Shown here piece by piece: positions 603-62,194 of a DNA stretch of 64,000 bases. The DNA comes from Octopus sinensis. Lineage: Eukaryota. A program made the position numbers and the translations under genes. The stretch covers positions 21,204,001 to 21,268,000 of the forward strand of contig NC_043015.1 in NCBI RefSeq assembly GCF_006345805.1, written 5' to 3'. How positions within the stretch are numbered: position 1 is the first letter of the stretch; every line of letters starts with the position of its first letter. The notes under the pieces are model-generated. The model made no database searches. It was not told where the DNA came from and saw nothing but the letters and a program-made list of their open reading frames with translations.

Positions 603-678
603 ACTCTACTGACGATTCGAAAATACTTATGTAAGTAAAACTACATAATCTATTAACGATGAAACAATTGTATAGAGT
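603..678 (+). ncRNA. Minimal type I hammerhead ribozyme motif (Penelope-type)
   Basis: Stem I actcta(603-608)/tagagt(673-678); core CTGACGA(609-615); short stem II tcg/cga with long loop; GAAA(661-664); palindromic helix III ACAATTGT(664-671); GTA cleavage triplet(670-672). Confidence 0.75.
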
Positions 679-10519: not shown

Positions 10520-11704
10520 ACAAAGCTCAAGAGGCCGAGGAAGGGCGAATGGCACCGCGAGTGTCGCGTTGCTCTCAAGCAACTCTGCCGTCCTGGGTCG
10601 ACCTTGAGTGACTTCATCACAATCAAAGCATTCTATAGGGGATTAGTGGAGGGGAGGTACGACGACGAGCTCGGGGCGAACCTGGACGTCGACGAGGAGT
10701 ACCTGACCCGCCTGTTCGGGACGACTTTCGGGCTAGGGCCCATGGACAACTTCTAGAGATCCCTGGCCTGGCAGTGCTACCGAGAAGCGCTACCCGTTCG
10801 GGATAAACTCTACAGACACGGCTCGAGAAACACGGGGCCGACCTGCCCGAGATGCGTTCAGAGCGACGAAACCGTTCTGCACGCACTCGTGCAGTGTCCA
10901 AAAATTTCCGACCTGTGGGCTTATGTCGAACAACTGCTGTCACGTGTGGGACGAGTCGGTTTATCAGCTGAGTCTATTGTCAATATTGTCACGCCTCCTT
11001 CCTTCAAACGGGAAGGAAGAGCTATTTTCATCATCCTTGTGGCTATGGCGAAAGAATGTATCTGGTGGACGCGTCTGAAAGGATTGGAGACAAACACTTT
11101 CCTCTCTGGCCAATCTCTCATCAACTTCTTCAAGTACCACTTGAAAAGGAAAGTGAGAGTAGAGAGGCAAGTTTTGTCTAGCGAATGTTTAAAAAAAAGA
11201 TGGGTGAATATAGCAAGGATGGCACGTATGAATGACGAAGCCACCTTGAGCATAATCCTATGAACCCAGAAATTGAAAACAGAGGGTTAGCCACTTGCAA
11301 ACAAATGTGGTAACATATAACAATATTGACCAAGGTTACCGTGGTCTTTTTCGTAGGCTTTTCTTCCCACGGATAAACCTTACTTGCTTTCCCCTTTACA
11401 CCATACATCATAACACTGTGATACACGATCACTATTGATCGTTTTTTTCCTCTTCCCATTCTTTTTCCCCTTTTTTCTTCTTTTTTTCATTTCTCTTTTC
11501 TTTTGTTCCTTTTCCTTTTCTCTTTTTTTTTCTTTATTTTTGTTCTCTTTCCCCTTTTACGATCCCTATTGATCGGAAACCTACGCCACCTTTTTTTTAT
11601 TTCTTTTGTTTTTTTGTTTTTTGCTTTTTTCATCCACCAAAAGAAAAGCTCTACCTTGTAACTTGTCCCATCTGTGTGCAGCCCTGTGTGGCCAATAAAG
11701 AAAC
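10520..11704 (+). mobile_element. 5'-truncated Tx1/L1-clade LINE, copy 1 (ORF2 C-terminal zf-RVT plus 3' UTR)
   Basis: LPVRDKLYRHG...TCPRCVQSDETVLHALVQCP zinc-finger motif; premature TAG at 10754-10756; ORF ends 11263; T-rich 3' UTR ending aataaagaaac. The 5' boundary is approximate. Confidence 0.9.
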
Positions 11705-12139
11705 TTATCTTCCAAATTAGAACGTTACCACAAAAACAACAAACGTTTACAAAGTGTTCTGATTGAATATGCTGATTAAATATATGTTACAGTTACATAT
11801 CAATTGTAGTGAAGTATATACGATACATTCATCACGCGTGTATTACTGCTACTTATTCATCAGACTATACACACACATACACACACACATACACGCGTGC
11901 ACACATACTTTCTTAATCCAAATACTTTGTTAGTTCGCCGGTAGGGTACGTAATGGAGCGGTGGCGATGACTACTTCAAAGCGTCGGATGCTGAAATACA
12001 CAGACAGACGAGACAACTAACTTCAAATGCCATTCAGGAGCAATGGGCATCCAAGTTTCACCATGTTGGCGGCTTATAACATCACGCACCCGAACCAGAC
12101 TGTAGACGAACTTAATCGCCAGTCAATGACTATATTCTT

Positions 12140-15962: not shown

Positions 15963-17314
15963 GTATGTATATATATATATATACCTATATTTCCAAGAGA
16001 GATCTTGGGAATAAAAAAAAAAAAAAATGATGTAAAGAGAGAGAAGTCTGATACAAGAGGAAAGAGAGAGACGTAGAAATAAAGAGGGATGCGAAATATC
16101 TTTATAGGGTGACTATATCAAATCATGTGTGTATATATATATATATATATATTTATTTATTTATTTATTTATACATACACACTTACATGCGCGCACACAA
16201 ACATATACAAGACATACATAAACGTACATATATATGCATATACGTCCTCATACACATACACTCACGCACACATATCGGGACCACCAAAATTTTACAACCA
16301 TTGATCATATTTTTATATGTTGCATAATTTCATAGCTGAGGGAGCGAATCGACGAACTAAACCTGTATTATTTAATTCTCTATAACGTCTTCTACAAAGC
16401 AACTTCTGCCGCTATGTTGAATTATCTTGTTTTTACATCAATGTGCATAATTTTCATCGTTCGTATAGACTACAAGGCGCCATATATTTCATACCAGAAA
16501 TGAAAATATTATTATTAACACAAACAACGATTTCCCATTGAGCAAAATATAATATTCACAAGTTAATATCCAGTGCGATATTCTTTTCTCTCAATGACCT
16601 CCCTACATCTTGAAAGGTAGAGAAACAATCATACGCTGGCAACCAGAAATTGGAATTTATTTCCATCATACTTTGATCACAGCCAACAGATTGTTGATAT
16701 TCGACTGTTTCTCAGCTTTGATGTCATGATCGACTACTTCCCTGAGATTTGTACCAAAGAGATGAAATTTATATTTCTCAGAGAAATACGTCATAACTCG
16801 ACGCGGAAATATGTTAAATAAGAAAGTAGAAATTTTGTACGTGTGCAGTCATATGAATACATTACTCCTGGGGAAATATCAACTACAGACGGGGTAACTA
16901 TCCTCCCTATCGCTCGTTCAATATTAATTCTTCTCTATAAAGAACGGAACTTTATAGTAGTCGTTCTCTCTCTCCTCTAAGCAACCCTAAACTAAATACT
17001 TGACAACCACCTTTTCTCTCATATCAGTACCTCTTTCATCCTTGGTTAGTGAAAAGAAGTTTGATTATTTTCACAGTGATTCCTCGCTCCATTTTGTTGT
17101 GCGGTTTATCACCTGCCATGGAATAATTTAAATTTGGCGTATACCTTGTCTTTATTACTTCAATTCGCAAACGCGTTCTTCCATAGATTGCTTGGCTGTC
17201 TAAAAGGTTGCATTAAAGGTTACGAGAGAAATTCTGAATGATAATTTGCGAGAGAGAGAAAGAGAGAGAGGGAGAGAGAGAGAGAGAGAGGAGAGAGACA
17301 TATGTACACATATC

Positions 17315-17347
<33 letters not shown>

Positions 17348-19166
17348 ACATGAGTATTGCTGAAATAAAGTGTGAAAGGAAGATAAGAGGAAAAAAGCGA
17401 AAAACCCAAACACGAAAATGCAATAGGTTTGGAAAGAAATTTATTCGGTTGATACTCGGAGAATTAGATAACAGGCATCAGATATCAGCCTTCTTTGGAA
17501 TTTTTATATCAGTGGATGGAAAGAAATGAAAGACGACGCAAAAAAAAAACCCCAGAGAAGATTGCGCCAGACATCTTATCCCAATTGTGTTGCTTCTTTT
17601 ATACTATCAACAAAATATTATAGTTTCTCCGGTCTGTTTAGCGACGCCACTGATGTTATTTGTCAGTAGATCTACCTGACAGAAGAACTCTTTTAGTAGG
17701 CCTGATGATTATAGACGGGAATATGATCTCAACTGCATTCTAAGTTGTATGAAGCCTTAGCATCTCTACCCCCCCTCTTTCTATCTTTCTCTCTGTCAAC
17801 TTTGCTTTTTAGAAAGGTATGAAACTGATTTGTGATACGGGAAACAGATATTGCATAATGTCAATTTTGATGAACAGGATTTTATTTTAAGCTTTGGTCT
17901 GTAGTAAGGAATACGTGTCCAGACACAGCCTGGATATCTTCTGTCCTATTTAGCTCAAACCTCGTAGACTTTCTACTGCTGCTAATTTGTTGGGAAGAAA
18001 CTATTCGAAACCTCTTCGGATGTTAACAGTATAAGAAAAATGCTATCGTCATTAAACTTAAAGTCACATTGAAAGGAAAGCATTTAAATTCGGTGACATC
18101 CTTTTTAAACAGGGCAAACACAGAATTTATCGATATGGGATCTGATAGGAATTTTCCTCAGCATTTCAGCTTTGGTGGAACGAATGAATAAGACTAAAAT
18201 CATTTTCCTGTAATATCATGATACTCTTGGCAATGACGAAATGAATTTCCACATTAAAATGCATTCTTATACCGATGGTCGGAGTAACAGTGAATATCCA
18301 CTTTTTTCTTTTAGCCACAGTGGAATTTTAAACCACGATAGCATTAAAGACATCATTTTCAACCCATCGAGGCGTCCCTAGAGAAAATTACCTGTACGAG
18401 ACGACGGGATGTGGATAGAGATCATAACCATCAACGGAACACCAATGAATGAATATTCCACACATATTAGAAATTGGTGTAATGAATCTACAGGGAATCA
18501 AAATAGACTCGTAATTGACAAAATTTTCAATTCTAAACTCCCTAAAGACAAACCTCGCTAGGAAAATGAGAAACTCGCCAAAAGTAAAGCATATTTATTA
18601 TCTGATCTTTCACTGATATTTATCTAGTTACACATAAAATAAACGTGCATAAGATAAACAATAAAATGTTTACGAATATTCTAGGAAAAAAGGCGGATGG
18701 AACATACTATTTGTATCGAAAACCCTTTTGGAACGAAGAAGCTAAACCTGAGTGGTAACATAGTAGATAAAGGGTAATAAAGTTATATTCAATATTGAAA
18801 CAGCTACCAGAGTCAAGAAAACTAGATCCACCAAATCAATTGTCTATAGCTGTTCCCCATTTGACAGACAAATTTCTAGAAAGAATTGCAATATTAGCGT
18901 CAAAAATTATAAAGTATCGCAGAGCGTATACGATATTGAGATCTAAAGGGCGTAAATCTCCTTTAATCTCGTATAGAGGAGATATACAACGGTATATATG
19001 AAAGATTGGGGTACTGGTGAAAGATCAATCAATAAGAGAAAGATCGGGCAAGAGGTGAATGCCTGGAGCAAAGGTATTGATAAAGACTGAGAACAGCGAT
19101 ATCGAAAATAGTTCTACGTGTATCTTTTTATCATCTGCACCACCACCACTACCATCACCACCATCA

Positions 19167-19283
19167 TGCATTGTTTATACCATTTATTATTTTGAATACT
19201 ATCAGTGGAATTTTTGAAACATGTGTCGAAAGTAAAAATATTTGATTAATACCTGCGTTAAACTCCATTTATTTATTCATATA
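19167..19283 (+). mobile_element. 5'-truncated copy of the hammerhead element at 22304-22440
   Basis: tgcattgtttataccatt...tttgaaacatgtgtcgaaagtaaaaatatttg...aactccatttatttattcatata is nearly identical to 22323-22440. Confidence 0.85.
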
Positions 19284-19509
19284 TATATATATATAGGAAG
19301 AAAAATAAAATGTAGATTGTGGAATTAATAAATGATTATAATCAACAAGACAATCGTTACCGCTTACAGCTGTTTCAACTAACATTCATTGAAATAATTA
19401 TTTAATTCATATGCCCTGAGCAATATTAATTATTAGGTATTGAACCAGTATTTCCTTGGATGGCACCATCCCCTCCTGAGGCTAACACAACCTCTAATCG
19501 AGTTTTACA

Positions 19510-19541
<32 letters not shown>

Positions 19542-20492
19542 TTTATGCTTATCGGATTGTGTGACTTATTTAGCTTTTTACACAATGGATACACAGTGCA
19601 GTCGTCATAACGATAATAACGTATGAGATTTCTACTATAAGCAGATCATGTAAACATCCGTTGAGACAATATATAAATACACAGCAAACGACATCTGCTA
19701 TTGTCATCTTGCCCATTAGAGAAACGATACGGACAATAGCAAGCATTGATGGTAATAACGATAAATAAATAAATAGAGCAGATGTCAAAATTTGAAGAGA
19801 TGAAGGATGAGAAAAGAGAAACAAATGAAATTGAATCTAAAGGCAATAATAAGCCCAGAAGCCCTAACATACATCAAAAAGCAACGAGATAATAGATCCA
19901 CTACTGGAGCACAAATGAGCACAAATGAACAACTAGACAAAACAAAATAATTATTCCATATATCGGTTTGACATTAACGACTCCCATGCTTAAGAAGGAA
20001 TGTAATTAAGGAAAGAGAGGAAATAACGAAGAAGAAAGAGAGAAACACCGTATTTTACTTCAAATGATTGAAACTTGTATAAAACGATTGTCAAGAATCG
20101 CAGCGGATTCGTGTCAATAAACCGGTTGGATATGTGCGTAGAAGACTTTTGGCATTTCAGAGTAGACAATATTACTAAGAAGATGAGGGAAAGTGAAGCA
20201 TTATTAACAAATAAAGGAACGGTAAACGTGACAGTTTGTTGAATGTCGTTAAATAACGAAAGTGACTCTTCCACTTGTAAGTATCTCTCTCTCTCTCGCA
20301 CGCTTAACACACGCACAACACAGAGTCAGGTGTGCGTGCATATAAATCCGTAAGCATACACACATACATACATACATACATATATATATAATGCAAACAC
20401 ACACACACACACACACACATATAATTATATGTACATGCATACATATATGTATCCAAAACACACACATATATATACTAACATGTATATATATG

Positions 20493-20620
20493 AAAAAAGT
20501 GGTATGATGACACCTTGTTCTCTGGACCGGAAAGTACTTAAGATCCAGGAACTCATCCTACGAGCTATATCGACCTTCTTGTTGATGTGTGCACTCCAAC
20601 TGAGATCGTCATCAACAATA
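20493..20620 (-). pseudogene. CR1/Jockey-group LINE RT C-terminal fragment within (TA)n
   Basis: Translates IVDDDLSWSAHINKKVDIARRMSSWILSTFRSREQGVIIPLF, typical of the D.xLsw..Hi region. Confidence 0.75.
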
Positions 20621-21221
20621 TATATATACATATATATATATAGTTCGTATTTGCATTTGGTTTGCAAGGTTCTTTGTGTGAATTCGTGTGTTGAAAGAAA
20701 TACTATTGATTTTGGGGAGGGTCATTATGCAGGTAATAATAAACACACGCACTGGTTCGGTCCTTTATTGTTATTGTTCTATATTGTTCGTGTTGTTATT
20801 CCATTTTTGTTTGTCAAATAATTATTTCATCGCATTGCTGTAGTCTCTTCAGTGACACGTCTCTCTACTTCCATTTCATTTAAACTTATATTCCAGCGTT
20901 GGAATTTGTACGAGATCTGTCCGAGATAAGTATGTGACTTTATGCATGTCAGTATGTGTGTGCGTTTATACGTATAAACACACACACACACACGTGCTCA
21001 TCACGGTCACATCCCAGTTCTGGTACATAAGTTCAAATGAAATAGCATTAGAGAGACATGACACTGAAGATACTGCAACAATGCGACGAAATGATTAGTT
21101 GACACAAAAATAGAAATAACAACACGAACACTACTGAACAAAAACAATAAAGTATCGAACCACTGTGTGTGTTTGTTATTACCGACATAATGTCGCTCCA
21201 GAGATCAAAAGAATATATATA

Positions 21222-21253
<32 letters not shown>

Positions 21254-21257
<4 letters not shown>

Positions 21258-21545
21258 CGTGATCACCGTGACCGACCAGGCTATCAGATGTTGCTACACA
21301 TCGCTGGTCACAATGCGCTTCGCATTATTTTAGCCTTTAAATGACACCACCCCGCTGGCTAAGCGAGCAGGCCAACAGAAGAAAGAGTGAGAGAAAATTG
21401 TGACGTAAGAGAGCAGCAGGATCGCCATCACCCCCTACCAGAGCTACGGGGAGCTTTAGGTGTTTTCACTCAATAAACACTCACAACGCCCGGTCTGGGA
21501 ATCGAAACTGCGATCCTACAACCGCGAGTCCGCTGCCCTAACCAC
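21254..21545 (-). mobile_element. SINE family B (tail type 2)
   Basis: Same head as 4296 (ttagggcagcggactcgcgg...tttcgattcccagaccgggcg), different tail ending (cacggtgat)2. Confidence 0.85.
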
Positions 21546-21554
21546 ACACACACG

Positions 21555-21608
<54 letters not shown>

Positions 21609-21609
21609 C

Positions 21610-21676
<67 letters not shown>

Positions 21677-21737
21677 TATACATATATATATATATATACA
21701 TATATAGGTACATATATACATATATACATACATATGT

Positions 21738-21813
<76 letters not shown>

Positions 21814-21814
21814 G

Positions 21815-22431
21815 AGAGTATTTTTACCTAGTCAACAATTAATACGGAAAAAATAAATAGTTAACAGGGTAGCAAAAATCTCACAAATAAAGAGGTTGCA
21901 ACTCCTTGTTTATAAACGTAGAAACTTCGTGTTTACGTGGAAGTTTTTGTATAATATATGAATAAATAAATTGAGTTTAAGGCAGGTTAATTTTGAGCTA
22001 TTTTTCATTATTTTTCCTAAAAATCCCCTAGTAAACACGGTTATAGAGCGAGCATACAGATGTAAACATTGGCAAAACCACACCTTTAGTACATATAAGT
22101 AGTCTCTATCATTATATATAATTTAAAATTCAATTTCCTTTATATTTAACATTCACTATTAATATCCCTACTCTTTCTGTAAGATACTTATGACGTTATA
22201 TCATATAACGTTTTTTTAAACAATATTAGTAGCGTTCAGTTAATCGCTATACAAATCCATCATTTTTTGCTAAAATGTCTTATTGACGAGTTTCGTTTTT
22301 TTCACTTTCCTGAAGAGAAGATTGCATTGTTTATACCATTTATTCTTTTGAATAGTATCAGTGGAATTTTTGAAACATGTGTCGAAAGTAAAAATATTTG
22401 ATTTATTCCTGCGTTAAACTCCATTTATTTA

Positions 22432-22440
<9 letters not shown>
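21815..22440 (+). mobile_element. Non-coding Penelope-type element with inverted terminal copy and hammerhead
   Basis: 21954-21986 (atatatgaataaataaattgagtttaaggcagg) is an inverted copy of 22408-22440; the upstream extension (cagggtagcaaaa...) recurs at 23357; hammerhead at 22304-22389. Confidence 0.65.
22304..22389 (+). ncRNA. Minimal type I hammerhead ribozyme motif
   Basis: Stem I actttc(22304-22309)/gaaagt(22384-22389); CTGAAGA(22310-22316); stem II gaaga/ttttt (gaaga/tcttc in the related copy at 23466-23519); GAAACATGTGTC with GTC site at 22381-22383. Confidence 0.8.
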
Positions 22441-22470
<30 letters not shown>

Positions 22471-22583
22471 ATATTTTGGAATGGTCATTTTGCCAGTTTA
22501 GCCAATAAAAACACACACACTATATGTTTGGTGTTATTTTGCTTCAGTGTTATTTTTTTTTACATTAATCTTAATCTTATTTC

Positions 22584-22628
22584 GGCCAGAGTTCTTTCGT
22601 CACACTCCTGTGACCGCATCAGTGGTCC
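22584..22628 (-). ncRNA. Variant hammerhead-like motif
   Basis: Minus strand ggacca-CTGATGCG-GTCACA ggag TGTGAC-GAAAGAACTC-tggcc: 6-bp stem II, partial stem I, non-canonical core position 9. Confidence 0.4.
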
Positions 22629-22886
22629 TTTGTTTTCTTCTTTCTTATTTGTGTCTCTCCTTACTAACCGTCAGCCATTTTGTATTTCTATTGTATGTCT
22701 TCATTTGCGGATGCTTATATCTCTATGTGCGTCTATGTCTATTTAGTGTGTGTGTGTGAGGGGATGCCTGTAATATTTGTATCTCCTGTTTATATACGTT
22801 CATGTAATTTGTATTTTGTTTTTGTTGTTGTTGTTTTTGTATATTCTTATTTTGTTCATATTTTGAATAAATCTCAACTAATGATA

Positions 22887-22919
<33 letters not shown>

Positions 22920-23349
22920 GTAAAGATAGAAAGAGAAGACGTAATGTACCATGACCTCCAAAATGATTTCGTCTATAATATGCAGTACTTTGTGGGCGTG
23001 GAACGATGCAATAACGCCAGAGACATAGCACAATGTATAGAATAATCCTCATTTGCTTAACGACTTGAAGCGTTACACTGCAAAATTGTATGATTCAAAT
23101 ATATTAAGCCTTCTTTCCTCATCTGGAGGACCTTTTCTTTTCTCTTCTTTTATTTTATCTGTTTGTCCTCAGTTTGATGAAGCTCCATGTACCAGATTGG
23201 ATGTGCTATAGACTATGACGAATATTATTCTCAGAATTTTCCTTTGCAGCGCTGATGGACATTGGAAGCAGAAACGGCTGCTAGAAGTGAATGCAAATGG
23301 ATGAATGAATTATCCTTTGTTTACTGTTAACATGGAAAATTTCAATAAA

Positions 23350-23584
23350 CAGTTACCAGGGTAGCAAAATTCATGCAAGTAACAAGGATGTAGCGACCTA
23401 TTCAAAGGTAGAAACTCCGGGTTAATGTGCAGTAATTTGTGTAGTATAAGTAAATAAATGGATGAGAAGATTGTATTTTACGCCGTTTATTCCTTTGGAA
23501 TAAAACCAATGTTGTCTTCGAAACATATGTTGAAAGTAAAAGAATTTGAATAGCATATGCGTTCAACTCCATTTATTTACTTAA

Positions 23585-23586
<2 letters not shown>
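23350..23586 (+). mobile_element. Diverged relative of the 21815-22440 element, with a hammerhead truncated at the inversion point
   Basis: taagtaaataaatgga (about 23447-23462) is inverted to tccatttatttactta (23568-23583); GATGA-GAAGA...TCTTC-GAAACATATGTT-gaaagt at 23461-23537. Confidence 0.65.
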
Positions 23587-23632
<46 letters not shown>

Positions 23633-24626
23633 GTATGTATATATATTCATATACATAAATATAGATACATAGACATGCATATATTTGTTTGTACGTTTGG
23701 TTTAGTCACAAGCAAGCGTGTCTTAAGCAAGAGTTACCTAAATTGCCAGAAGATCTTGCCAAGCTACCCTGAAAATGTACCGTACTCTATTAACATAGGG
23801 AGAATGTTATTATTGAGGCCCTGAATAACAAAAATTGGGTTGTAACAAATAATGTTATACCACTGAGTATATTTATTCTATCTCAACAGATTTGGGAATT
23901 TATTCAGACGAAGAACTGCAACAATATCAGGAAAAATACGGAAAGCAGTTGTATTTCAGAAGGGTTAGCTTTCGAATGCTTAAATATATTCACATGATAC
24001 TTTCCACGTTGCTCGTCCTGAAGTCGAAGAAGACAAAATGAAATCTCTCAACGACAGAATCACGATAACAATCAATGTGGGGGAGCAAGAACTGTAATCT
24101 ATCATCTGATCGATATCATTAATATATCTAAATATCAATATTTCAACAACCGAACCAGGCAACCTGAAACTCTTCTATATTGTCTTCGAGATTGTCTGAT
24201 GAAAAATAGGAAGATTTACAATGATAATAATAATGATTATGATTATAATAATAAGAATAATACTGATGATGATGATGATGATGATGATAATAATAATGAG
24301 TATATTAATAAAGGTTTCACAAAAATATATCAAGAACAATGTTTCGACATGTTAACCCTGTAGCAAGAGATTATACGCGACCAAAGATAATTATATTATT
24401 CGCTAGCGAGTTATAGACTGAGAAAGAAAGAGAGAAAAAGACGGAGAGACTGAGAGAGTAGGAAGAGGGGGACTTACACATAATGAGGAAAGAAAGAGCG
24501 AGGAAGATAGGTAGAGAAGAAAGTAAAGGGAAAATAAAACGAAGAATAAAAAACTAGAAGTGAAATAGAGAGTGTGAGAAAGAGGGCAAAAGAGAGAGAG
24601 AGAGAGAGAGGAGGGATAAAGAGACG

Positions 24627-24665
<39 letters not shown>

Positions 24666-25042
24666 TGTATGTATATATTTATATGTATGCATATAAATGT
24701 ATATATACATGTATATATGTATATATATATGTATTATACATATATATATATATGTATATATATGTATATGTATATATATATATTATATATACATATATAT
24801 ATGTATATATATGTATATGTACGTGTATATATATATACATATTACATATATATATATATATATGTATATGTACGTGTATATATACATGTATATATATGTA
24901 TGTATATATATATATATATATTATATATATATATATGTACATATATATATGTATATATATATATGTATATATATATATACATATACATATATATACATAT
25001 ATACATATATATATATATTATATATATAAATATAAATATACA

Positions 25043-26350: not shown

Positions 26351-27441
26351 GCACCGCGAGTGTCGCGTTGCTCTCAAGCAACTCTGCCGTCCTGGGTCGA
26401 CCTTAAGTGACTTCAACACAACCAAAGCATTCTATAGGGGTTTAGTGGAGGGGAGGTACGACGACGAGCTCGGGGCGAACCTGGACGTCGACGAGGAGTA
26501 CCTGACCCGCCTGTTCGGGACGACTTTCGGGCCAGGGCCCATGGACAACTTCCAGAGATCCCTGGCCTGGCAGTGCTACCGAGAAGCGCTACCCGTTCGG
26601 GATAAGCTCTACAGACACGGCTCGAGAAACACGGGGCCGACCTGCCCGAGATGCGGTCAGAGCGACGAAACCGTTCTGCACGCACTCGTTCAGTGTCCAA
26701 CAATTTCCGACCTGTGGGCTTATGTCGAACAACTGCTGTCACGTGTGGGACGAGTCGGTTTATCAGCTGAGTCTATCGTCAATATTGTCACGCCTCCTTC
26801 CTTCAAACGGGAAGGCAGAGCTATTTTCATCATCCTTGTGGCTATGGCGAAAAAATGTATCTGGTGGACGCGTCTGAAAGGATTGGAGACAAACACTTTC
26901 CTCTCTGGTCAATCTCTCATCAACTTCTTCAAGTACCACTTGAAAAGGAAAGTGAGAGTAGAGAGGCAAGTTTTGTCTAGCGAATGTTTTAAAAAAAGAA
27001 TGTAGCAAGAATGGCACGTATGAATGACGAAGCCACCTTGAGCATAGTCCTATGAACCCAGAAATCGAAAACAGAGAGTTGCTTATTTGCAAAAAAAAAA
27101 AAAAAAAAAAAAAAATATAAAATGTGACTTCATTGACCGAGGTTACCGTGGTCTTTTCCGTAGGCTTTTCTTTCCACGGGTAAACCTCACCTGTCCTCCC
27201 CTTTACACTTCATATTGACATTTCTGTGATAACGATCCCTATTGATCAATTTTTTTTCCTCTCCCCCTTTTTTTTTTTTTTAACCCCCCCCTTTTTTTTG
27301 TCCTCTTTCTCTCCTTTTACGATCCCTTTTGATCGAAACTCCCCCTTCCTTTTTTTTTTTTTTTTTAAACCTTCAAAAGAAAAGCTCTACCTTGTAATTT
27401 GTTCTATCTGTGTGCAGCCCTGTGTGGCTAATAAAGAAACA

Positions 27442-27442
<1 letters not shown>
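26351..27442 (+). mobile_element. 5'-truncated Tx1/L1-clade LINE, copy 2, within (ATCT)n
   Basis: ORF to 27005 with zf-RVT CPRCGQSDETVLHALVQC; a small deletion near 27000 shifts the frame; (ATCT)n on both sides. Confidence 0.92.
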
Positions 27443-27478
<36 letters not shown>

Positions 27479-30949: not shown

Positions 30950-31970
30950 AGAGTTTAGCGGCATTTCGCCCGTCTTTACGCTCTGAGCACAAATTCCGCC
31001 GAGGTCGACTTTGCCTTTCATCCTTTCGAGGTCAATAATGTAAATACCAGTTGAGCAGTGAGGCCTATGCAATCAATTTGTCCCCTTTCCCAAACTCTCT
31101 GTCATTGTGCACCAAATTCGAAACTATTAATTAGAAGACGGTATTTCGTCCTTGTACGTCATGAGATTAAATTCTGCAGAAGTCGACTTGTCTTTCATCC
31201 ACCCGGAGTCTGTAAAATAAGTGCCAGTTAGCACTGGGGTGCATATAATTGATTTACCCCCTCCTCTAAATTTCTGGCTTTGCGCCCAACATTTGAGACC
31301 AAACATTAGTTACATTATTTACATTTGTCGGATATTTGTCCTCATCTTGTTTGTTGTTAACAAAACGTTTCAGTTGGTATACCCTCCAGTCTTCAACAAC
31401 CTTGGGGGAAGGCTGGCGGGTATATCAGCCGAAACGTTGTGTTAACAATAAACAAGATGAGGACAAATATCTGTCAAATGTAAATAATGTACATAATTCC
31501 TCATCTCTTAAATATAGAACTGTGTTTGAAACCATTAGTAACCAGGAGAGGAGACGAGCTGACAGAATCGTTAACATACTGGACGAGATGCTTAGCGATA
31601 GGTCGTTCAAATACCGCCGAAGTCAATTTGTTCTTCATCCTGTGCGGGACGGTGAAATAAGCACCTGTTAGACGCCGGGGTCAATGTAATCGACGTTCCT
31701 GCTCCTTGTAAGATATTAGGACTTGTGTCTTTAACTGAAAGAACTGTTAACGGAGAGAAAGGATTCGAGCTGGTAGAATCGTCTCCATGTCGGAATAGAT
31801 GTTTAGCGGTATTTCGTTCATTTTTACGTTCTGATTTCAAATTACGTTGAGGTCAACTTTGCTTCTAATCCGTTCAAGATCAATGTCACTACCAGTCAAA
31901 CACGGGTGAATGCAATCGATTTGCTCTACCAACCAAGATTGCTGATCATGGACCAAAATAAGAAATAATT
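30950..31970 (+). mobile_element. Cluster of at least 4 degenerate family C SINE copies
   Basis: Recurrent gaggtcgactttgcctttcatcc core at about 31000, 31180, 31620 and 31850. Confidence 0.75.
31311..31525. mobile_element. Foldback (hairpin) element from the family of 39783-40097, with hammerhead halves and a 3' tail
   Basis: Inverted arms of about 84 bp (31311-31394 vs about 31408-31491), about 13-nt spacer; right arm GAAGGCTG...CAGCC-GAAACGTT-gtgtt; unpaired tail cataattcctcatctcttaaatatagaac. Confidence 0.85.
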
Positions 31971-32500: not shown

Positions 32501-33612
32501 GTGGTGTGTGTGAGTGTGTGTGTGTGTGTGTGTGTATTTACGTACACACACATACATCGATATATATAGAGAGAGTGAGACAAATCAATGTGTGTGTGTG
32601 TATGTGCGCGCGTGTGTCTAAGCATGTGCGCATATACACAGCTTCCCCTACCCCGTCAATAAACAAACGAGAGATCGATGCTGAAGCTAAGAAATATGTC
32701 TTCTGCAACTGTCACCTCGCAAAGTATGAGTAAAAACTTTAGGTAAACCCTGATCTGACGAGTGTCAAAGAAGGGTGAAGTTTACCCGATATTGTCGAAA
32801 TAAATGCAACGGATAAACCGTCTTCGCGTTGTGTTAAAGATTGCTTTTACATTAATATGATATGATAGCGTCGACATATCTTCAATAAATTGTCTTATTG
32901 TTTATCATTGCTTGCTAATCTTCACTAAATTTTCGTGGAAACTTCCAAAATTATGACACAATGACAGCTGACATACATATGTGAACTACATACTGAATAC
33001 GAAAACCGATCTCTCTTCTCTCTCTCACTTCTCTATCTCTCTCTCACCTCTCTTTCTCTCTCTCACCTCTCTTTCTCTCTCTCACCTCTCTTTCTCTTTC
33101 TCACCTCTCTTTCTCTCTCTCCGTCTCTCTCTTCCTCTTTCCCTCTCCTTCTCTTTCTCAAACATGCATAATCACATACACGAGTATTCATGCATGTGGA
33201 ACATATATATACACACACTTACATACATATATGAGTGTGCATACGTACTTGCGTACACACCTGACATATATATACATATACACACATATATACATGCATA
33301 CATATATTAGGTCCGCATATATATAATTATACACACATACACACCTTCATGTAGGAAGAAACACACATACATATTTGTACGCAAAAACAGTCGAACATAT
33401 GTTTAAACCTTTCAAATATTGAAAAAAATTCAATAATTCTGACACATGTAAGTTAAGTGATGGGTGCAGTTGGTTACTCACGTCAATTGCTCTCAATCAA
33501 TTGCAAAAAACAAGGCTACAGGTCGAGAGTTCGTCGATATCCCAGGGCTTTAACTCTCAACAGCTATGGATATTTTAAAAATATTATTTGAACACATTTT
33601 TGGAATCTGAAT

Positions 33613-37107: not shown

Positions 37108-37312
37108 CCGGAGTAAACACATAAATGTGAAACAAGGTGGAAAAAAAGAGTACTGAAATACCAGTGGTAGAGTAATATGCTTTATTTAAAGCAGCAGAAA
37201 ATTCAACAAAACCTGTTTCTCTGAGTTTCCCGTTTCCGTTCGTCGGACGACGAACGGAAACGGGAAACTCTGAGTAACAGGTTTTGTTGAACTTTCTGCT
37301 GCTTAAATAAAG
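37108..37312. mobile_element. 205-bp foldback element with hammerhead-like arms and a 15-bp TSD
   Basis: Direct repeat tatatctaaaatatg at 37093-37107 and 37313-37327; inverted arms of about 70 bp (37175-37245 / 37248-37317) with a 2-nt loop. Confidence 0.85.
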
Positions 37313-37504
37313 TATATCTAAAATATGTACAGTTTGTGACCAAGTCTTTTTACAAATAGTTTTGCTAACGATGAAATGTGTTTAAATCAATATTCTAAAC
37401 TTCTTGACTTAAGAGTTTAATCTTTTTACAGGATAAAATATGTGTCTGCCACACAGGTATTAATTTCAATTTACTGTTTTCGTTTGCGCGTGGCTGTATG
37501 TATG

Positions 37505-37578
<74 letters not shown>

Positions 37579-37589
37579 CGAGAGAGAGA

Positions 37590-38940
37590 TAAGAAATACC
37601 AAAAAGGATCAGTAAAGAATTCATTACTAAATCAATTGAATTCATCCTACATAATAACCACTTCATGTTTGACAATACATTTTACCGTCAAAAATCCGGA
37701 ATTGCTATGGGTACAAGGGCAGCACCAGTCATTGCAAACCTAACAATGGGCTACCTGGAAATAATAATTTACCAGGAATCTTTATTAATCTTTGGAAACC
37801 CCCTCTCTCAATACACAAAAGAGAATTGGAAACGATTCCTGGACGATTGTTTTATACTCTGGAATGAAAACACAGATAAACTCCTAAAATTAAAAAACCT
37901 ATTGAACAGCATAAACCCAAATATACAGTTCACAATGGAATACAACCAAAAGGAGCTCCCATTCTTGGATATACTAATTAAAAAAATTAACCTTAAAATA
38001 GAAACAGACATTTTTTACAAAGCCACAGACGCCAAACAATACCTTCTTTTATTCATGCCACCCAAGACACACTAAAACAAACATCCCCTTCAACCTTGCA
38101 AGAAGGATATGCACAATAGTGTCAGAACAAAATACCAGGAACTTTAGACTGCAAGAACTCAAAAACACCCTAATTGACAGACATTACCCAGCTCAACTCA
38201 TAGAGGATGGGATCAGACGTGCAACAGAAATCAACATAGAAACTTTAAGAAAAGTTCAACACAACAACACACCTTCCCCGAAAATACTACCTTAAATATC
38301 TACATACAACCCCAGAAACAAAGAAGCCTTCACCATCATCACCCAGAATTTACCAATACTTCAGAAGGACCCCAAATTAAAGGAAATTCTAAACATACAC
38401 CAAATCATTAAAAGCTACAAACAACCTAAATCATTTAAAAAGATTCTCACAAAGGCAAAATTGTTTTCTGAAATTACGGATGCAAAAGTAAAAAGATGTG
38501 GTAGACCAAACTGTGCAACATGTCCAAACCTGTTAGAAGGATCAGAATTCCTCTTCAAAGAGGGACAGAAATTCAAGATCAAATCTAACTTTACTTGTGC
38601 CTCTGAAAACATAATTTATGTCATAAAATGCTCGGGCTGCCACCAAGACTACGTGGGATCCACGGGACTATCACTCAGACGTAGATGCACACTGCATCGA
38701 CAACAGATTGCGTTCCCAGAATACAGAATGATACCTTTTAGTGAGCACATTGAGAAATGCGCAAAGCAACTACTACCACAATTCTTAATCTTTCCATTTT
38801 ACCAATGTACTATCGGATCATCAACACAAATTAGACTAAACAAGGAAACATTCTTCATTGAAAAGTACAAGCCCAGACTTAACCATTCCAACATACTGAT
38901 ACAGAGAAATTCACACCAAGGGAAATGCAAAAAAGTTTAA
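37590..38940 (+). pseudogene. 5'-truncated Penelope-like element: RT plus GIY-YIG endonuclease (Neptune-like)
   Basis: FYRQKSGIAMGTRAAP, WKRFLDDCF, LPFLDI, DIFYKATD; frameshift near 38050; stop 38293-38295; CGRPNCATC zinc finger; NIIYVIKCSGCHQDYVGST. Confidence 0.95.
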
Positions 38941-39049
38941 GCGATTATCTCCCTTACACCGGAAGAAATCACTTATTACCTCTCCTTAGCTAGAACTCTT
39001 TTGAACATAAACATAACGATAACTCTTCTCAACATAAACATAACGACGT

Positions 39050-39088
39050 AAGAAATTTGAAAAGCTAAACGCGAAACCAGTCTTTCTT
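39050..39088 (+). ncRNA. Degenerate hammerhead in the 3' region (pLTR) of the Penelope copy
   Basis: aagaaa/tttctt stem I, TTGAAAA (mutated CTGAAGA), GC..GC stem II, GAAACCAGTC; lies 110 nt after the ORF stop. Confidence 0.5.
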
Positions 39089-39782
39089 CTAAACTATGTC
39101 ATTGTAAGAAAAAATTTATAATATTCTTCACACATATTGACTCAAATATATATTTTTTAACCTTTTAAAACAAGCCTTCTGTAGTTTTTTCACTTTTTAC
39201 TATTTTCTATATATATATATATATATATACATGGGTGTGTGCGTGTTTGTATGTATGCATACCCCTAAGGAATGAGGGAAACAGAAAATGGAATTCACGA
39301 GAATCTTTATTCATCACATCAATCGTTTGGAGCCATCTTAGATCGGACTTTTGCGGATGGGATATTATACAACGGATGGTACTGCGTCCTCTGGTGTAGA
39401 CATATCACGTCAGGTAACTTTTTAAAAAAATCATACCTTACTCAGTATGAAATATATATTATAGTGGGGTAGGTCGGTTAATTGAGTTACTCTTGTTACT
39501 GATGGCCTGAGACCACACAGTCGAAGATCGCTGGACAATGGCAAAGAGAAATAATCATTTAGTGTTTACACTTAAAAATGAGACTTTTCCCCCTCCATAC
39601 TTTAAAGAGGTCTCAGGCCAGCAGTGTTTAGGGAGTGAGGATACGCCGTAAGGCCAAACTCTTACGAGCGAAAAACCCAGGGTAACCTTATAAACTGGCC
39701 TACACCACTATAATATTAACTGCTCTACATCTTAGAGTGATGTGCTTCTACTCCGGATTATTGTATTTCTACAAATGATCCT

Positions 39783-40096
39783 TACATTATTTGTCCTCAG
39801 CTTTTTTGTTGTTAACACAACGTTTCGGCTGATATACCCCCTCCCCAGCCTTCAGGTGTCCTGGGGAAATTTCGAACCTATGTCCTCATTCCTAAGGTAT
39901 TTTTCAATGATATTATTATTGTTATTATTATTATTATTATTATTAGTAATAGTAGTAGTATTCAGGTCACTGCCTGGTATTGAACTCGGAATCTTAGGGT
40001 TAGTAGCACGCGCTCTAAACCACTACGCCATATGCCAGTAGGCAAATGTAAATAATGTAAATAATGTACATGATTCCTAATTTTTTAGATATAGAA

Positions 40097-57129: not shown

Positions 57130-57132
<3 letters not shown>

Positions 57133-58018
57133 CCGAGAAGCGCTACCCGTTCGGGATAAGCTCTACAGACACGGCTCGAGAAACACGGGGCCGACCTGCC
57201 CGAGATGCGGTCAGAGCGACGAAACCGTTCTGCACGCACTCGTTCAGTGTCCAACAATTTCCGACCTGTGGGCTTATGTCGAACAACTGCTGTCACGTGT
57301 GGGACGAGTCGGTTTATCAGCTGAGTCTATCGTCAATATTGTCACGCCTCCTTCCTTCAAACGGGAAGGAAGAGCTATTTTCATCATCCTTGTGGCTATG
57401 GCGAAAGAATGTATCTGGTGGACGCGTCTGAAAGGATTGGAGACAAACACTTTCCTCTCTGGTCAATCTCTCATCAACTTCTTCAAGTACCACTTGAAAA
57501 GGAAAGTGAGAGTAGAGAGGCAAGTTTTGTCTAGCGAATGTTTTAAAAAAAGATGGGTGAATGTAGCAAGAATGGCACGTATGAATGACGAAGCCACCTT
57601 GAGCATAGTCCTATGAACCCAGAAATCGAAAACAGAGAGTTGCTTATTTGCAAAAAAAAAAAAAAAAAAAAAAGAATATAAAAGGTGACTTCATTGACCG
57701 AGGTTACCGTGGTCTTTTCCGCAGGCTTTTCTTTCCACGGGTAAACCTCACCTGTCCTCCCCTTACACTTCATATTGACATTTCTGTGATAACGATCCCT
57801 ATTGATCATTTTTTTTCCTCTCCCCCTCTTTTTTTTTTTTTTTTTTTTTTTTAACCCCCCTTATTTTTGTCCTCTTTCTCTCCTTTTACGATCCCTTTTG
57901 ATCGAACCTCCCCCTTCCTTTTTTTTTTTTTTTTTTTTTTTAATACCTTCAAAAGAAAAGCTCTACCTTGTAATTTGTTCTATCTGTGTGCAGCCCTGTG
58001 TGGCTAATAAAGAAACAT
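57130..58018 (+). mobile_element. 5'-truncated Tx1/L1-clade LINE, copy 3, within (ATCT)n/(GTCT)n
   Basis: Uninterrupted C-terminal ORF to 57616 (zf-RVT); nearly identical to copy 2, including the 3' UTR. Confidence 0.92.
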
Positions 58019-58037
58019 ATCTATCTATCTATCTATT

Positions 58038-61217: not shown

Positions 61218-61700
61218 TTTGGTTGGCAACTAGGTTCCCGCCGTTTTTTCTAAATTTTGGAATTTATTGCATTTTTAAACTTTGGAATCTATTTTTTTCG
61301 AGAATTCTATTTTTGAATCATTTTGGAATCTATTTTCTTCTTTTTTTCCCTAGTTAATTTTGGTTAATTTTTATTTTCAGATCATTAAAGTGGAATGTCA
61401 AGTTAAAAACGAGCCTTTTCGACACCTCCTTCTTTTTGCTTTTAATCAAGGTTCTAAGGCCGCAAAAGCTGCTCGCGACATTTGTGCTGTGTATGGAGAG
61501 GGTGCCATAGCTGAAAGAACCGCTCGCGATTCGTGTGCCAAGTTCAAAAATGGAAATGTTGACGTCAAAGATACACCTCGTTCTAGCCGTCCAGTTGAGT
61601 TCGAAAATTCTCGTCAAACGACAAGGGAACTGGCAGAGAAAATGAAATGCTCTCACACTGCTATAGAGAAGCATCTTCACTCGATGGGAACGGTTCAGAA
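61218..61700 (+). mobile_element. Mariner transposon 5' part (TIR plus N-terminal HTH of transposase)
   Basis: TA-flanked TIR-like tttggttggcaactagg; FRHLLLFAFNQGSKAAKAARDICAVYGEGAIAERTAR...FKNG...DTPRSSRP; internally deleted. Confidence 0.9.
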
Positions 61701-62194
61701 TTTTAAAGTTTATCGAAAAATATTTCTTTTGTTTTGCAAAGTATTCTTTCGACATCTGTTTCACTAACGCGTACTTAATTTTACAATACTTATAATTATC
61801 GAAACAAAATTTGAACACGCAAGCGTCACACCTTCGGAGACAATTTGAAATAGAAATTAAAAATTCAAACTGGTTCTTAAATGAATTAAATGTCTAGGGG
61901 AATATACGGAATCATTGAGATGAAAACACAAAATGAATGAAAAATTAGAAAAAATGAAAAAATATAAGACATGAACAAATGAGTGTGAATATAAGTTTTG
62001 AAGCTGTGCGTTGAAATATATATAATAGGTAGCTATTTGCAGCTGAACATTTGATTATTTCTCAGACAAAAGCAATGCTAGTTGCTTTAACAAATATAAA
62101 CGATATATGGGGCTGCGTTCTTAAAGGTTACGAAGGAATGACAAGAGATGAAGGAATTATGAAAATAAAGAACATATTTATGTATCTCATTATG

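What the first reader, a model, noticed from the sequence alone, without database searches (positions are those of the whole stretch)
21815..23586. Two diverged relatives support the hammerhead fold and the inverted-tail architecture
Seen: 22304-22389 and 23461-23537 differ strongly in the stem II loop yet keep GAAGA/TYTTY pairing, GAAAC, the helix III palindrome (ACATRTGT) and gaaagt. Both are preceded by an inverted copy of their own 3' end plus a shared extension (cagggtagcaaaa...gtagaaact). A third truncated copy lies at 19167. Established: partial inverted pLTRs with a tail are a Penelope integration signature.
Basis: partly seen in the sequence, partly recalled or inferred. Interest (0 to 1): 0.7.

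Follow-up and report, generated by a model that had tools for sequence, protein, structure and literature searches.

The report
Long-stem hammerhead in Penelope debris
These three related DNA scraps are likely leftover tail ends of a Penelope-type jumping gene; one of them holds a complete, unusually long-stemmed version of a predicted self-cutting RNA, which makes it a modest variant of a known system rather than a new one.

Summary
The motifs, inverted arms, shared extension and third copy are real. The claim that two diverged relatives validate the fold is not. Only copy A (22304-22389) is a complete type I hammerhead. B starts inside the core and lacks helix I. C is 96% identical to A. A-B conservation is close to uniform (core and stems 28/33, rest 64/91, p=0.077), with no two-sided covariation. 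The fold rests on a strict descriptor (only hit in the window; 1 of 100 shuffles) and on folding, which gives a double hammerhead for an A dimer. New here: A's direct arm opens with a reading frame ending in N-x3-E-x4-C-x-H and a stop, the C-terminal signature of Hydra-clade Penelope endonucleases (1 of 20,000 spacer shuffles; chosen post hoc, no database homolog). With (TA)n targets and a 3' hammerhead, this points to truncated Hydra-type Penelope insertions. Two traits depart from published examples: a 55-nt helix II (10-24 nt in 25 Hydra families) and a 120-150 bp inverted-arm extension (textbook tail 30-40 bp). The autonomous parent, copy number and cleavage activity are untested. Verdict: new variant of a known kind, moderate interest.

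The parts
21564..21806 (.). (TA)n-rich microsatellite on the left of insertion A (likely target)
   Evidence: TRF
21807..21959 (-). Extension ('long tail') of A's inverted arm, about 150 nt; BLAST-supported to 21839, the last ~30 nt only by extended alignment
   Evidence: the distal block alone is not significant (253 of 3000 random stretches)
21960..21986 (-). Inverted copy of A's own 3' end (matches 22408-22434; BLAST runs on to 21950 in TA-ambiguous bases)
   Evidence: 2 mismatches in 29
21987..22102 (+). Start of A's direct arm: likely last codons of a Hydra-type PLE endonuclease (E-x12-N-x3-E-x4-C-K-H, stop 22100-22102)
   Evidence: pattern from PMC8557442 Fig S7; no database homolog
22103..22303 (+). 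Likely 3' UTR; its last ~25 nt are predicted to compete with the hammerhead fold
   Evidence: inference
22304..22389 (+). Complete type I hammerhead A: helix I 22304-09/22384-89; core 22310-16; 55-nt helix II 22317-71; GAAA 22372-75; helix III 22375-82; predicted cut after C22383
22390..22434 (+). 45-nt trailer to the proximal 3' end of A
22435..22466 (.). (TA)n on the right of A
23296..23446 (-). Extension of B's inverted arm (supported to 23327, probably to 23296); no (TA)n directly beyond it
23447..23462 (-). Inverted copy of B's own 3' end (16 of 16); overlaps the direct arm by 2 nt (GA microhomology at 23461-23462)
23461..23537 (+). B: hammerhead cut off at G5 (no helix I 5' strand, no C3/U4); keeps helix II, GAAA, helix III palindrome, U17 and the helix I 3' strand
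23538..23583 (+). 46-nt trailer of B, then AG and (TA)n from 23586
19167..19278 (+). C: 5'-truncated copy starting within helix II, 108 of 112 nt identical to A, same 3' end (45 nt past helix I), then (TA)n; no inverted arm

Best explanation
A, B and C are likely 5'-truncated 3'-end insertions of a Penelope-like retrotransposon family, probably of the Hydra clade, and A keeps a complete type I hammerhead with a 55-nt helix II that is predicted to cut after C22383 mainly as a dimer. Shown: the three homologous copies, one shared 3' end 45-46 nt past helix I in 3 of 3, (TA)n after each, head-to-head inverted arms in 2 of 3 with a shared 120-150 nt extension, and the complete motif in A only. Inferred: the parent's RT-endonuclease nicked (TA)n and started reverse transcription at two internal sites of the tandem transcript, as shown for the Anolis element PAc. 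The proximal site gave the direct arm. A distal site 120-150 nt further on gave the inverted arm with its extension. Both cDNAs stopped early and were joined head to head (2-nt microhomology in B). The extension would be the sequence that follows the pLTR in the parent. Predicted: helix III is too weak in a monomer, and two copies pair through the palindrome into a double hammerhead that processes tandem transcripts. At this locus the copies are probably inert: B and C keep only the substrate half, and A is predicted to misfold with its native 5' flank.
For: Strict descriptor: 1 hit in 128 kb of strands, 1 of 100 shuffles. In isolated A, helix I pair probabilities are 0.70-0.97, helix II 0.91-0.99 and helix III at most 0.02. 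A+A cofolds as a double hammerhead at -41.6 kcal/mol vs 2 x -16.3. Inverted arms, tail and 5' truncation are described for PLEs (PMC8557442; PMC3846280); internal RT starts define the tail (PMC11167929). Hydra link: E-x4-C-x-H in 9 of 9 Hydra proteins and 0 of 9 other PLEs in Fig S7. The pattern N-x3-E-x4-C-x-H occurs in 1 of 20,000 shuffles of A's spacer, and with the upstream E and stop in 0 of 20,000. It lies on the sense strand 207 nt before the core. Hydra families target (TA)n, carry a 3' hammerhead with an AC..GT helix III, and include G-U closing pairs (2 of 25), H17 = A, C or U, and an inverted 5' copy in Penelope-13_HM. Published Hydra consensus ends fall 25-42 nt (10 of 24) or 80-148 nt (11 of 24) past helix I, like the two ends seen here.
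Against: The Hydra pattern was applied after I had noticed the peptide. The peptide departs from Hydra at conserved positions (no basic residues after N; R where Hydra has L/I/F/A), and five searches found no true homolog: Pfam, phmmer with 2 repeat-protein artefacts only, ESM Atlas, word search, and a Neptune-type HMM at E 9.4. The CxxC motif would lie at the junction and is missing. Helix III is 8 nt, against 9-10 nt in Hydra rows. No covariation. No Rfam hammerhead hit. Whole-motif folding z is only -1.25. With native flanks helix I probability is about 0.01. B, not A, resembles the 3' UTR of a local Neptune-type PLE. B's extension does not end at (TA)n. No conserved structure or ORF was found in the extension.
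Confidence: 0.68

Rival explanations
1. Non-autonomous hammerhead element (SINE- or retrozyme-like) moved in trans by PLE proteins; the ORF-like motif is chance or a long-dead vestige.
For: No homolog for the peptide. The peptide is degenerate although A and C differ by only 4 of 112 nt. PLE cis sequences can mobilise other DNA (PMC3846280), and retrozymes are proposed PLE derivatives (bioRxiv 2026.07.22.740005).
Against: No tandem array and no tRNA gene in the window. The motif statistics and its position fit a PLE 3' end.
Confidence: 0.16
2. The parent is a Neptune/Nematis-type PLE such as the remnant at 37577-39215.
For: B's direct arm scores best among 610 window tiles at that element's sense-strand 3' UTR, 1 of 5000 shuffles. 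This clade's linker is associated with (TA)n targeting.
Against: One of 100 comparisons. A's direct arm (1325 of 5000) and both inverted arms (3392 and 654 of 5000) do not match. The shared stretch is mostly hammerhead 3'-half motif. tblastn with 6 relatives finds nothing in 18500-24500 except weak hits at 19685-19801 (E above 3).
Confidence: 0.1
3. A foldback or MITE-like repeat in which the hammerhead resemblance is accidental or non-functional.
For: No covariation and near-uniform conservation; predicted misfolding in context; no Rfam hit.
Against: All core nucleotides, three helices and a palindromic helix III occur together (1 of 100 shuffles). The arms are asymmetric and 5'-truncated, and 1 of 3 copies has no inverted arm.
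Confidence: 0.05

Closest known systems
Hydra-clade PLEs (Craig et al. 2021, PMC8557442; e.g. Hydra-1_Obim, Penelope-13_HM, Penelope-1_SK)
   Same: (TA)n target; type I hammerhead near the 3' end with an AC..GT helix III; C-terminal N..E..CxH pattern then a stop; inverted 5'-truncated copy; two classes of 3' end.
   Different: Helix II 55 nt vs 10-24 nt in 25 families (counted by hand); helix III 8 vs 9-10 nt; five short motifs of A/B absent from the paper's supplement; RT, DKT/RWK motifs and CxCX5C linker not present to test.
PLE pLTR hammerheads with a small palindromic helix III (Cervera and De la Pena 2014, PMC4209133)
   Same: Type I topology, U-rich 5' and AU-rich 3' flanks, palindromic helix III, predicted dimer dependence, mostly single dispersed truncated copies.
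   Different: No unpaired base after A9; G10.1-U11.1 in A (G-C in B); helix II far longer than in the 56-motif alignment.
Poseidon_Ac (PAc) tail mechanism (Frangieh et al. 2024, PMC11167929)
   Same: AT-rich target; the tail as the interval between two internal RT start sites.
   Different: Tail 30-40 bp there, 120-150 bp here; there the ORF starts within the hammerhead, here no conserved ORF was found in the trailer or extension.
PLE-X1_sMoe hammerhead (Selaginella; Craig File S2)
   Same: Long helix II (53 nt), flagged as deviating from the canonical form: a precedent for the long stem.
   Different: EN-minus plant element targeting 28S rDNA; different helix III.
Metazoan non-LTR retrozymes (PMC7229834)
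   Same: Type I hammerhead with a weak helix III; dimers cleave better.
   Different: Defined by 150-450 bp tandem repeats, which are absent here.

Membership tests
Type I hammerhead ribozyme | CUGANGA and GAAA core, UH site, three helices open at helix I | tested here: met
   A only. Not met for B or C, which are truncated.
Type I hammerhead ribozyme | Covariation in helices across homologs | tested here: inconclusive
   2 independent sequences; 0 two-sided changes; P=0.28 and 0.16
Type I hammerhead ribozyme | Rfam hammerhead model match | tested here: not met
   0 hits at gathering score; no hammerhead family among 109 hits at E up to 10 in 18000-25000
Type I hammerhead ribozyme | Self-cleavage after H17 | not testable with these tools
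   needs an in vitro assay
Penelope-like element insertion | 5'-truncated copies sharing a 3' end | tested here: met
   3 of 3 end 45-46 nt past helix I, with three different 5' ends
Penelope-like element insertion | Head-to-head inverted 5'-truncated copy | tested here: met
   2 of 3 copies
Penelope-like element insertion | 30-40 bp tail on one arm (optional trait) | tested here: not met
   An extension is present but is 120-153 nt
Penelope-like element insertion | Linked RT plus GIY-YIG ORF | tested here: inconclusive
   Only 38 terminal codons, motif-level match; no homolog; no animal genome collection to extend the copy
Hydra clade | C-terminal conserved E and N followed by CxH | tested here: met
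   pattern applied post hoc, flanking residues atypical
Hydra clade | CxxC before the E; RWK, DKT and CxCX5C motifs; no CCHH; RT phylogeny | not testable with these tools
   The copy is truncated upstream of the E
Hydra clade | (TA)n insertion and a 3' hammerhead | tested here: met
   (TA)n at 3 of 3 direct ends and at A's left end, not at B's or C's left end; hammerhead in A
Neptune/Nematis (local element 37577-39215) | pLTR sequence shared with the element | tested here: inconclusive
   B matches (1 of 5000); A and both inverted arms do not
Naiad | 3' UTR similarity to published cephalopod Naiads; ORF ending in the RT thumb | tested here: not met
   0 hits for 5 motifs; 3' ends of 3 of 5 cephalopod Naiads read by eye; thumb HMM (built from C-terminal-EN relatives, not Naiads) E 9.4
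Non-LTR retrozyme | Tandem 150-450 bp hammerhead repeats | tested here: not met
   TRF found only microsatellites and one 20-bp unit in 18500-24200

The most novel reading that the evidence does not exclude
Hydra-clade Penelopes start reverse transcription at two sites 80-150 nt apart, not 30-40. This would give a long-tail signature already latent in the bimodal ends of published consensus sequences. A branch of them carries hammerheads with a 45-55 nt helix II that Rfam and short-spacer descriptors miss. The unrelated motif at 603-678 would be a second such family, so these ribozymes could be numerous and uncounted in this genome.
Probability: 0.3. Interest if true: 0.6.

Novelty: new variant of a known kind. 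Interest (0 to 1): 0.38.

Why it matters
Hammerheads in Penelope pLTRs, inverted arms and tails are all published, so the locus is mostly ordinary transposon debris. Two points could matter to specialists. First, the origin of the tail is an open question with one in vitro answer (PAc). A family whose direct and inverted arms end 120-150 nt apart maps both putative start sites from genome copies alone and tests whether 30-40 bp is general. Second, a complete hammerhead with a 55-nt helix II escapes Rfam here and would escape a 7-17 nt core-spacer search (PMC8557442 methods), so PLE ribozyme counts may be too low. It also offers a simple natural substrate for testing dimer-dependent cleavage.

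Tried and rejected
Rfam, whole window and local: no hammerhead; the top hits are microsatellite-driven miRNA models.

Genome contigs (bacterial and archaeal) scans with a 30-nt A/B pattern and with a PLE protein pair (327 pattern matches, none confirmed) were empty, as expected for an animal element. Phage blastn of A found no match. The cluster look-up for PLE protein names could not be made.

Naiad idea (prompted by the 'HHR_half_core' label of Naiad_Ovul): rejected. RT-thumb reading of A's peptide: rejected (E 9.4, eighth-best segment of 2092). phmmer hits P0009 and P0010 are tandem-repeat proteins and were dropped. A spacer vs 32660-32990 (16 of 5000 shuffles but outscored by AT-rich tiles): chance. 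Structure in the extension: none shared. Anti-ribozyme pairing upstream of A: -9.8 kcal/mol, matched by 166 of 3000 random 30-mers, not significant. The helix I probabilities printed for the 603 motif used an off-by-one register and were ignored. No covariance model was built: two independent sequences cannot support one.

Full report
SETTING. The window is AT-rich, microsatellite-dense animal-like DNA full of mobile-element remnants. That it resembles octopus DNA is my recollection, not a tool result.

OBSERVATION. Self-BLAST finds three homologous copies: A (direct arm ending 22434), B (23461-23583) and C (19167-19278). A strict type I descriptor hits only A, 22304-22389, on either strand; 1 of 100 shuffled windows gave a hit. 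A has a 6-bp helix I, CUGAAGA, a 55-nt helix II closed by G-U, GAAA, an 8-nt self-complementary helix III segment and C22383 as H17. B begins at G5: the inverted arm replaces helix I and C3/U4, and 2 of 6 in-register positions could pair. C begins within helix II and equals A at 108 of 112 nt. So there is one complete motif and two independent sequences.

DOES DIVERGENCE SUPPORT THE FOLD? Barely. A-B identity is 28/33 in core and stems against 64/91 elsewhere (p=0.077). Distal helix II (31/46) is no more diverged than the 3' flank (33/45; p=0.65) or the extension (118/175). The consensus helix II keeps 15 of 15 pairs, 7 through one-sided changes and none through two-sided changes, but that structure was fitted to both sequences. 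Tested across, A's structure keeps 6 of 11 changed pairs in B (P=0.28) and B's keeps 6 of 7 in A (P=0.16). The fold rests on the descriptor and on thermodynamics: helix II alone folds at z -3.15 in A. In isolated A, helices I and II form, helix III does not (at most 0.02), and two A molecules cofold as a double hammerhead (-41.6 vs 2 x -16.3 kcal/mol). Against this, the whole motif has z -1.25, Rfam finds no hammerhead, and with 54 nt of native 5' flank helix I falls to about 0.01.

ARCHITECTURE. All three direct arms end 45-46 nt past helix I, at (TA)n. A and B are preceded head to head by an inverted copy of their own end (27-37 and 16 nt), which continues into an extension shared at 67-71%. 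The extension is at least 120 nt and probably about 150 nt; the last 30 nt are not significant alone (253 of 3000). A sits inside (TA)n on both sides; B's left end does not. B's junction has a 2-nt overlap. C has no inverted arm. Inverted 5'-truncated copies and an optional 30-40 bp tail are PLE hallmarks (PMC8557442; PMC3846280), and in PAc the tail spans two internal RT start sites (PMC11167929).

LINK TO A PLE ORF. A Penelope remnant with RT, a CX2-5CxxC linker and GIY-YIG lies at 37577-39215. B's direct arm matches its 3' UTR (best of 610 tiles; 1 of 5000 shuffles), but this was 1 of 100 comparisons, and A and both inverted arms do not match. A better link is inside A. Its direct arm opens with a sense frame, 21986-22099, ending E-x12-N-x3-E-x4-C-K-H plus ten residues and a stop. 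Craig et al. describe a Hydra-specific CxH after the conserved E and N. Their Fig S7 shows E-x4-C-x-H in 9 of 9 Hydra proteins and in none of 9 other PLEs. The N-x3 spacing I read from three rows of that figure and by eye from six consensus DNAs. The pattern occurs in 1 of 20,000 shuffles of A's spacer. In the whole window it occurs twice against 0.08 expected, and the second hit (16817) looks by eye like another decayed Hydra-type end. Caveats: I applied the pattern after noticing the peptide, its flanking residues are atypical, and Pfam, phmmer, the ESM Atlas and a word search found no true homolog. I put the Hydra assignment at about 0.65-0.7 and PLE origin at about 0.9.

COMPARISON WITH HYDRA HAMMERHEADS. 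In File S2 (hand counts), 25 Hydra families have helix II totals of 10-24 nt, helix III segments of 9-10 nt of the AC..GT type, H17 of A, C or U, a G-U closing pair in 2, and no extra base after A9 in at least 5. A fits except for the 55-nt helix II and 8-nt helix III. A 53-nt helix II is listed for the plant element PLE-X1_sMoe. From Files S1 and S2 I computed the distance from helix I to the consensus 3' end for 24 families, leaving out Penelope-18_HMa (5' motif only) and the antisense row of Penelope-13_HM: 10 at 25-42 nt, 11 at 80-148 nt, and 58, 65 and 350 nt. This bimodality resembles the two ends here, although curators' trimming could also produce it.

MECHANISM. Shown: the copies, ends, arms and motif. 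Inferred: two-site internal priming at a nicked (TA)n, early termination of both cDNAs, and head-to-head joining. Predicted: dimer-dependent cleavage after C22383 in tandem parent transcripts. Published PLE hammerheads cleave poorly, and PAc's needed its protein and was dispensable for insertion in vitro, so the role is uncertain. At this locus B and C cannot cleave alone, but they keep the palindrome, H17 and the helix I 3' strand, and they cofold with A's helix I 5' strand. They could be cut by A only if co-transcribed, for which there is no evidence.

NOVELTY. A variant of a known system. Nine paper searches returned no description of this family, of a long-helix-II Hydra hammerhead or of long Hydra tails. 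The library lacks most subscription papers and Lunse et al. 2017, which may cover such variants. Repbase and Dfam were not available.

PAPERS SEEN. PMC4209133: main text parts 1-2 of 4, supplement parts 1-2 of 3. PMC11167929: parts 1-2 of 4; supplements listed only, and they may bear on tail mapping. PMC8557442: passages, section 11, three supplement searches and supplement parts 1, 2, 24, 52, 53 and 59 of 59. Passages only: PMC3846280, PMC8969392, PMC6765202, PMC6155905, PMC7229834, PMC13282606 (supplement listed only). bioRxiv 10.64898/2026.07.22.740005: part 1 of 5, supplements closed (16).

VERDICT. Observation partly confirmed; interpretation partly supported; best reading 0.68; new variant of a known kind; interest 0.38.

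Noticed in passing
window 603-678 (+), within 541-835: A second type I hammerhead-like motif: 6-bp helix I, CUGACGA, a 45-nt helix II region with a mismatched base, the perfect palindrome ACAATTGT, A17; flanked by (TA)n. No significant sequence similarity to A or B. Possibly a second long-stem family.
   Followed up: partly
window 16620-16897 (+): Likely a decayed Hydra-type endonuclease end (L-N-x3-E-x4-C-S-H, stop; frameshifted upstream). No DNA match to A, no hammerhead seen downstream, no Pfam or Atlas support.
   Followed up: partly
window 37577-39215 (+): 5'-truncated Neptune/Nematis-type PLE: RT, thumb, linker zinc-finger motif and GIY-YIG, broken by a frameshift and an in-frame stop, between (TA)n tracts. 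Its 3' UTR near 39073-39143 may hold an eroded hammerhead 3' half that resembles B.
   Followed up: partly
window 20716-21199: Head-to-head inverted pair (74%), each arm with a hammerhead-like motif (cores at 20852 minus, 21064 plus; helix I TGTCA/TGACA; short, decayed helix II): another probable PLE family.
   Followed up: partly
window 31305-31497 and 39788-39853: Inverted pair and a solo copy of a short-helix-II hammerhead-like 3' half with damaged cores; a third probable PLE pLTR family.
   Followed up: no
window 37175-37317 and 919-968: A 143-bp near-perfect palindrome whose arm recurs at 919-968 next to (TA)n; possibly a further inverted-pLTR remnant.
   Followed up: no
window 22282-22321: The 5' flank of A can pair with GAAAC and the cleavage site and can sequester the core in a competing hairpin; not significant alone (166 of 3000).
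   Followed up: partly
PMC8557442 Files S1 and S2: Published Hydra consensus 3' ends are bimodal (10 of 24 at 25-42 nt, 11 of 24 at 80-148 nt past helix I); not remarked on in the passages I read.
   Followed up: partly
window 10552-11710, 26351-27446, 57130-58022 (+); 61354-61764 (+); 20500-20610 (-): Three 90-97% identical LINE 3' ends with zf-RVT; a Mos1-type mariner HTH remnant; a short LINE-RT-like peptide (the last label recalled, not tested).
   Followed up: no
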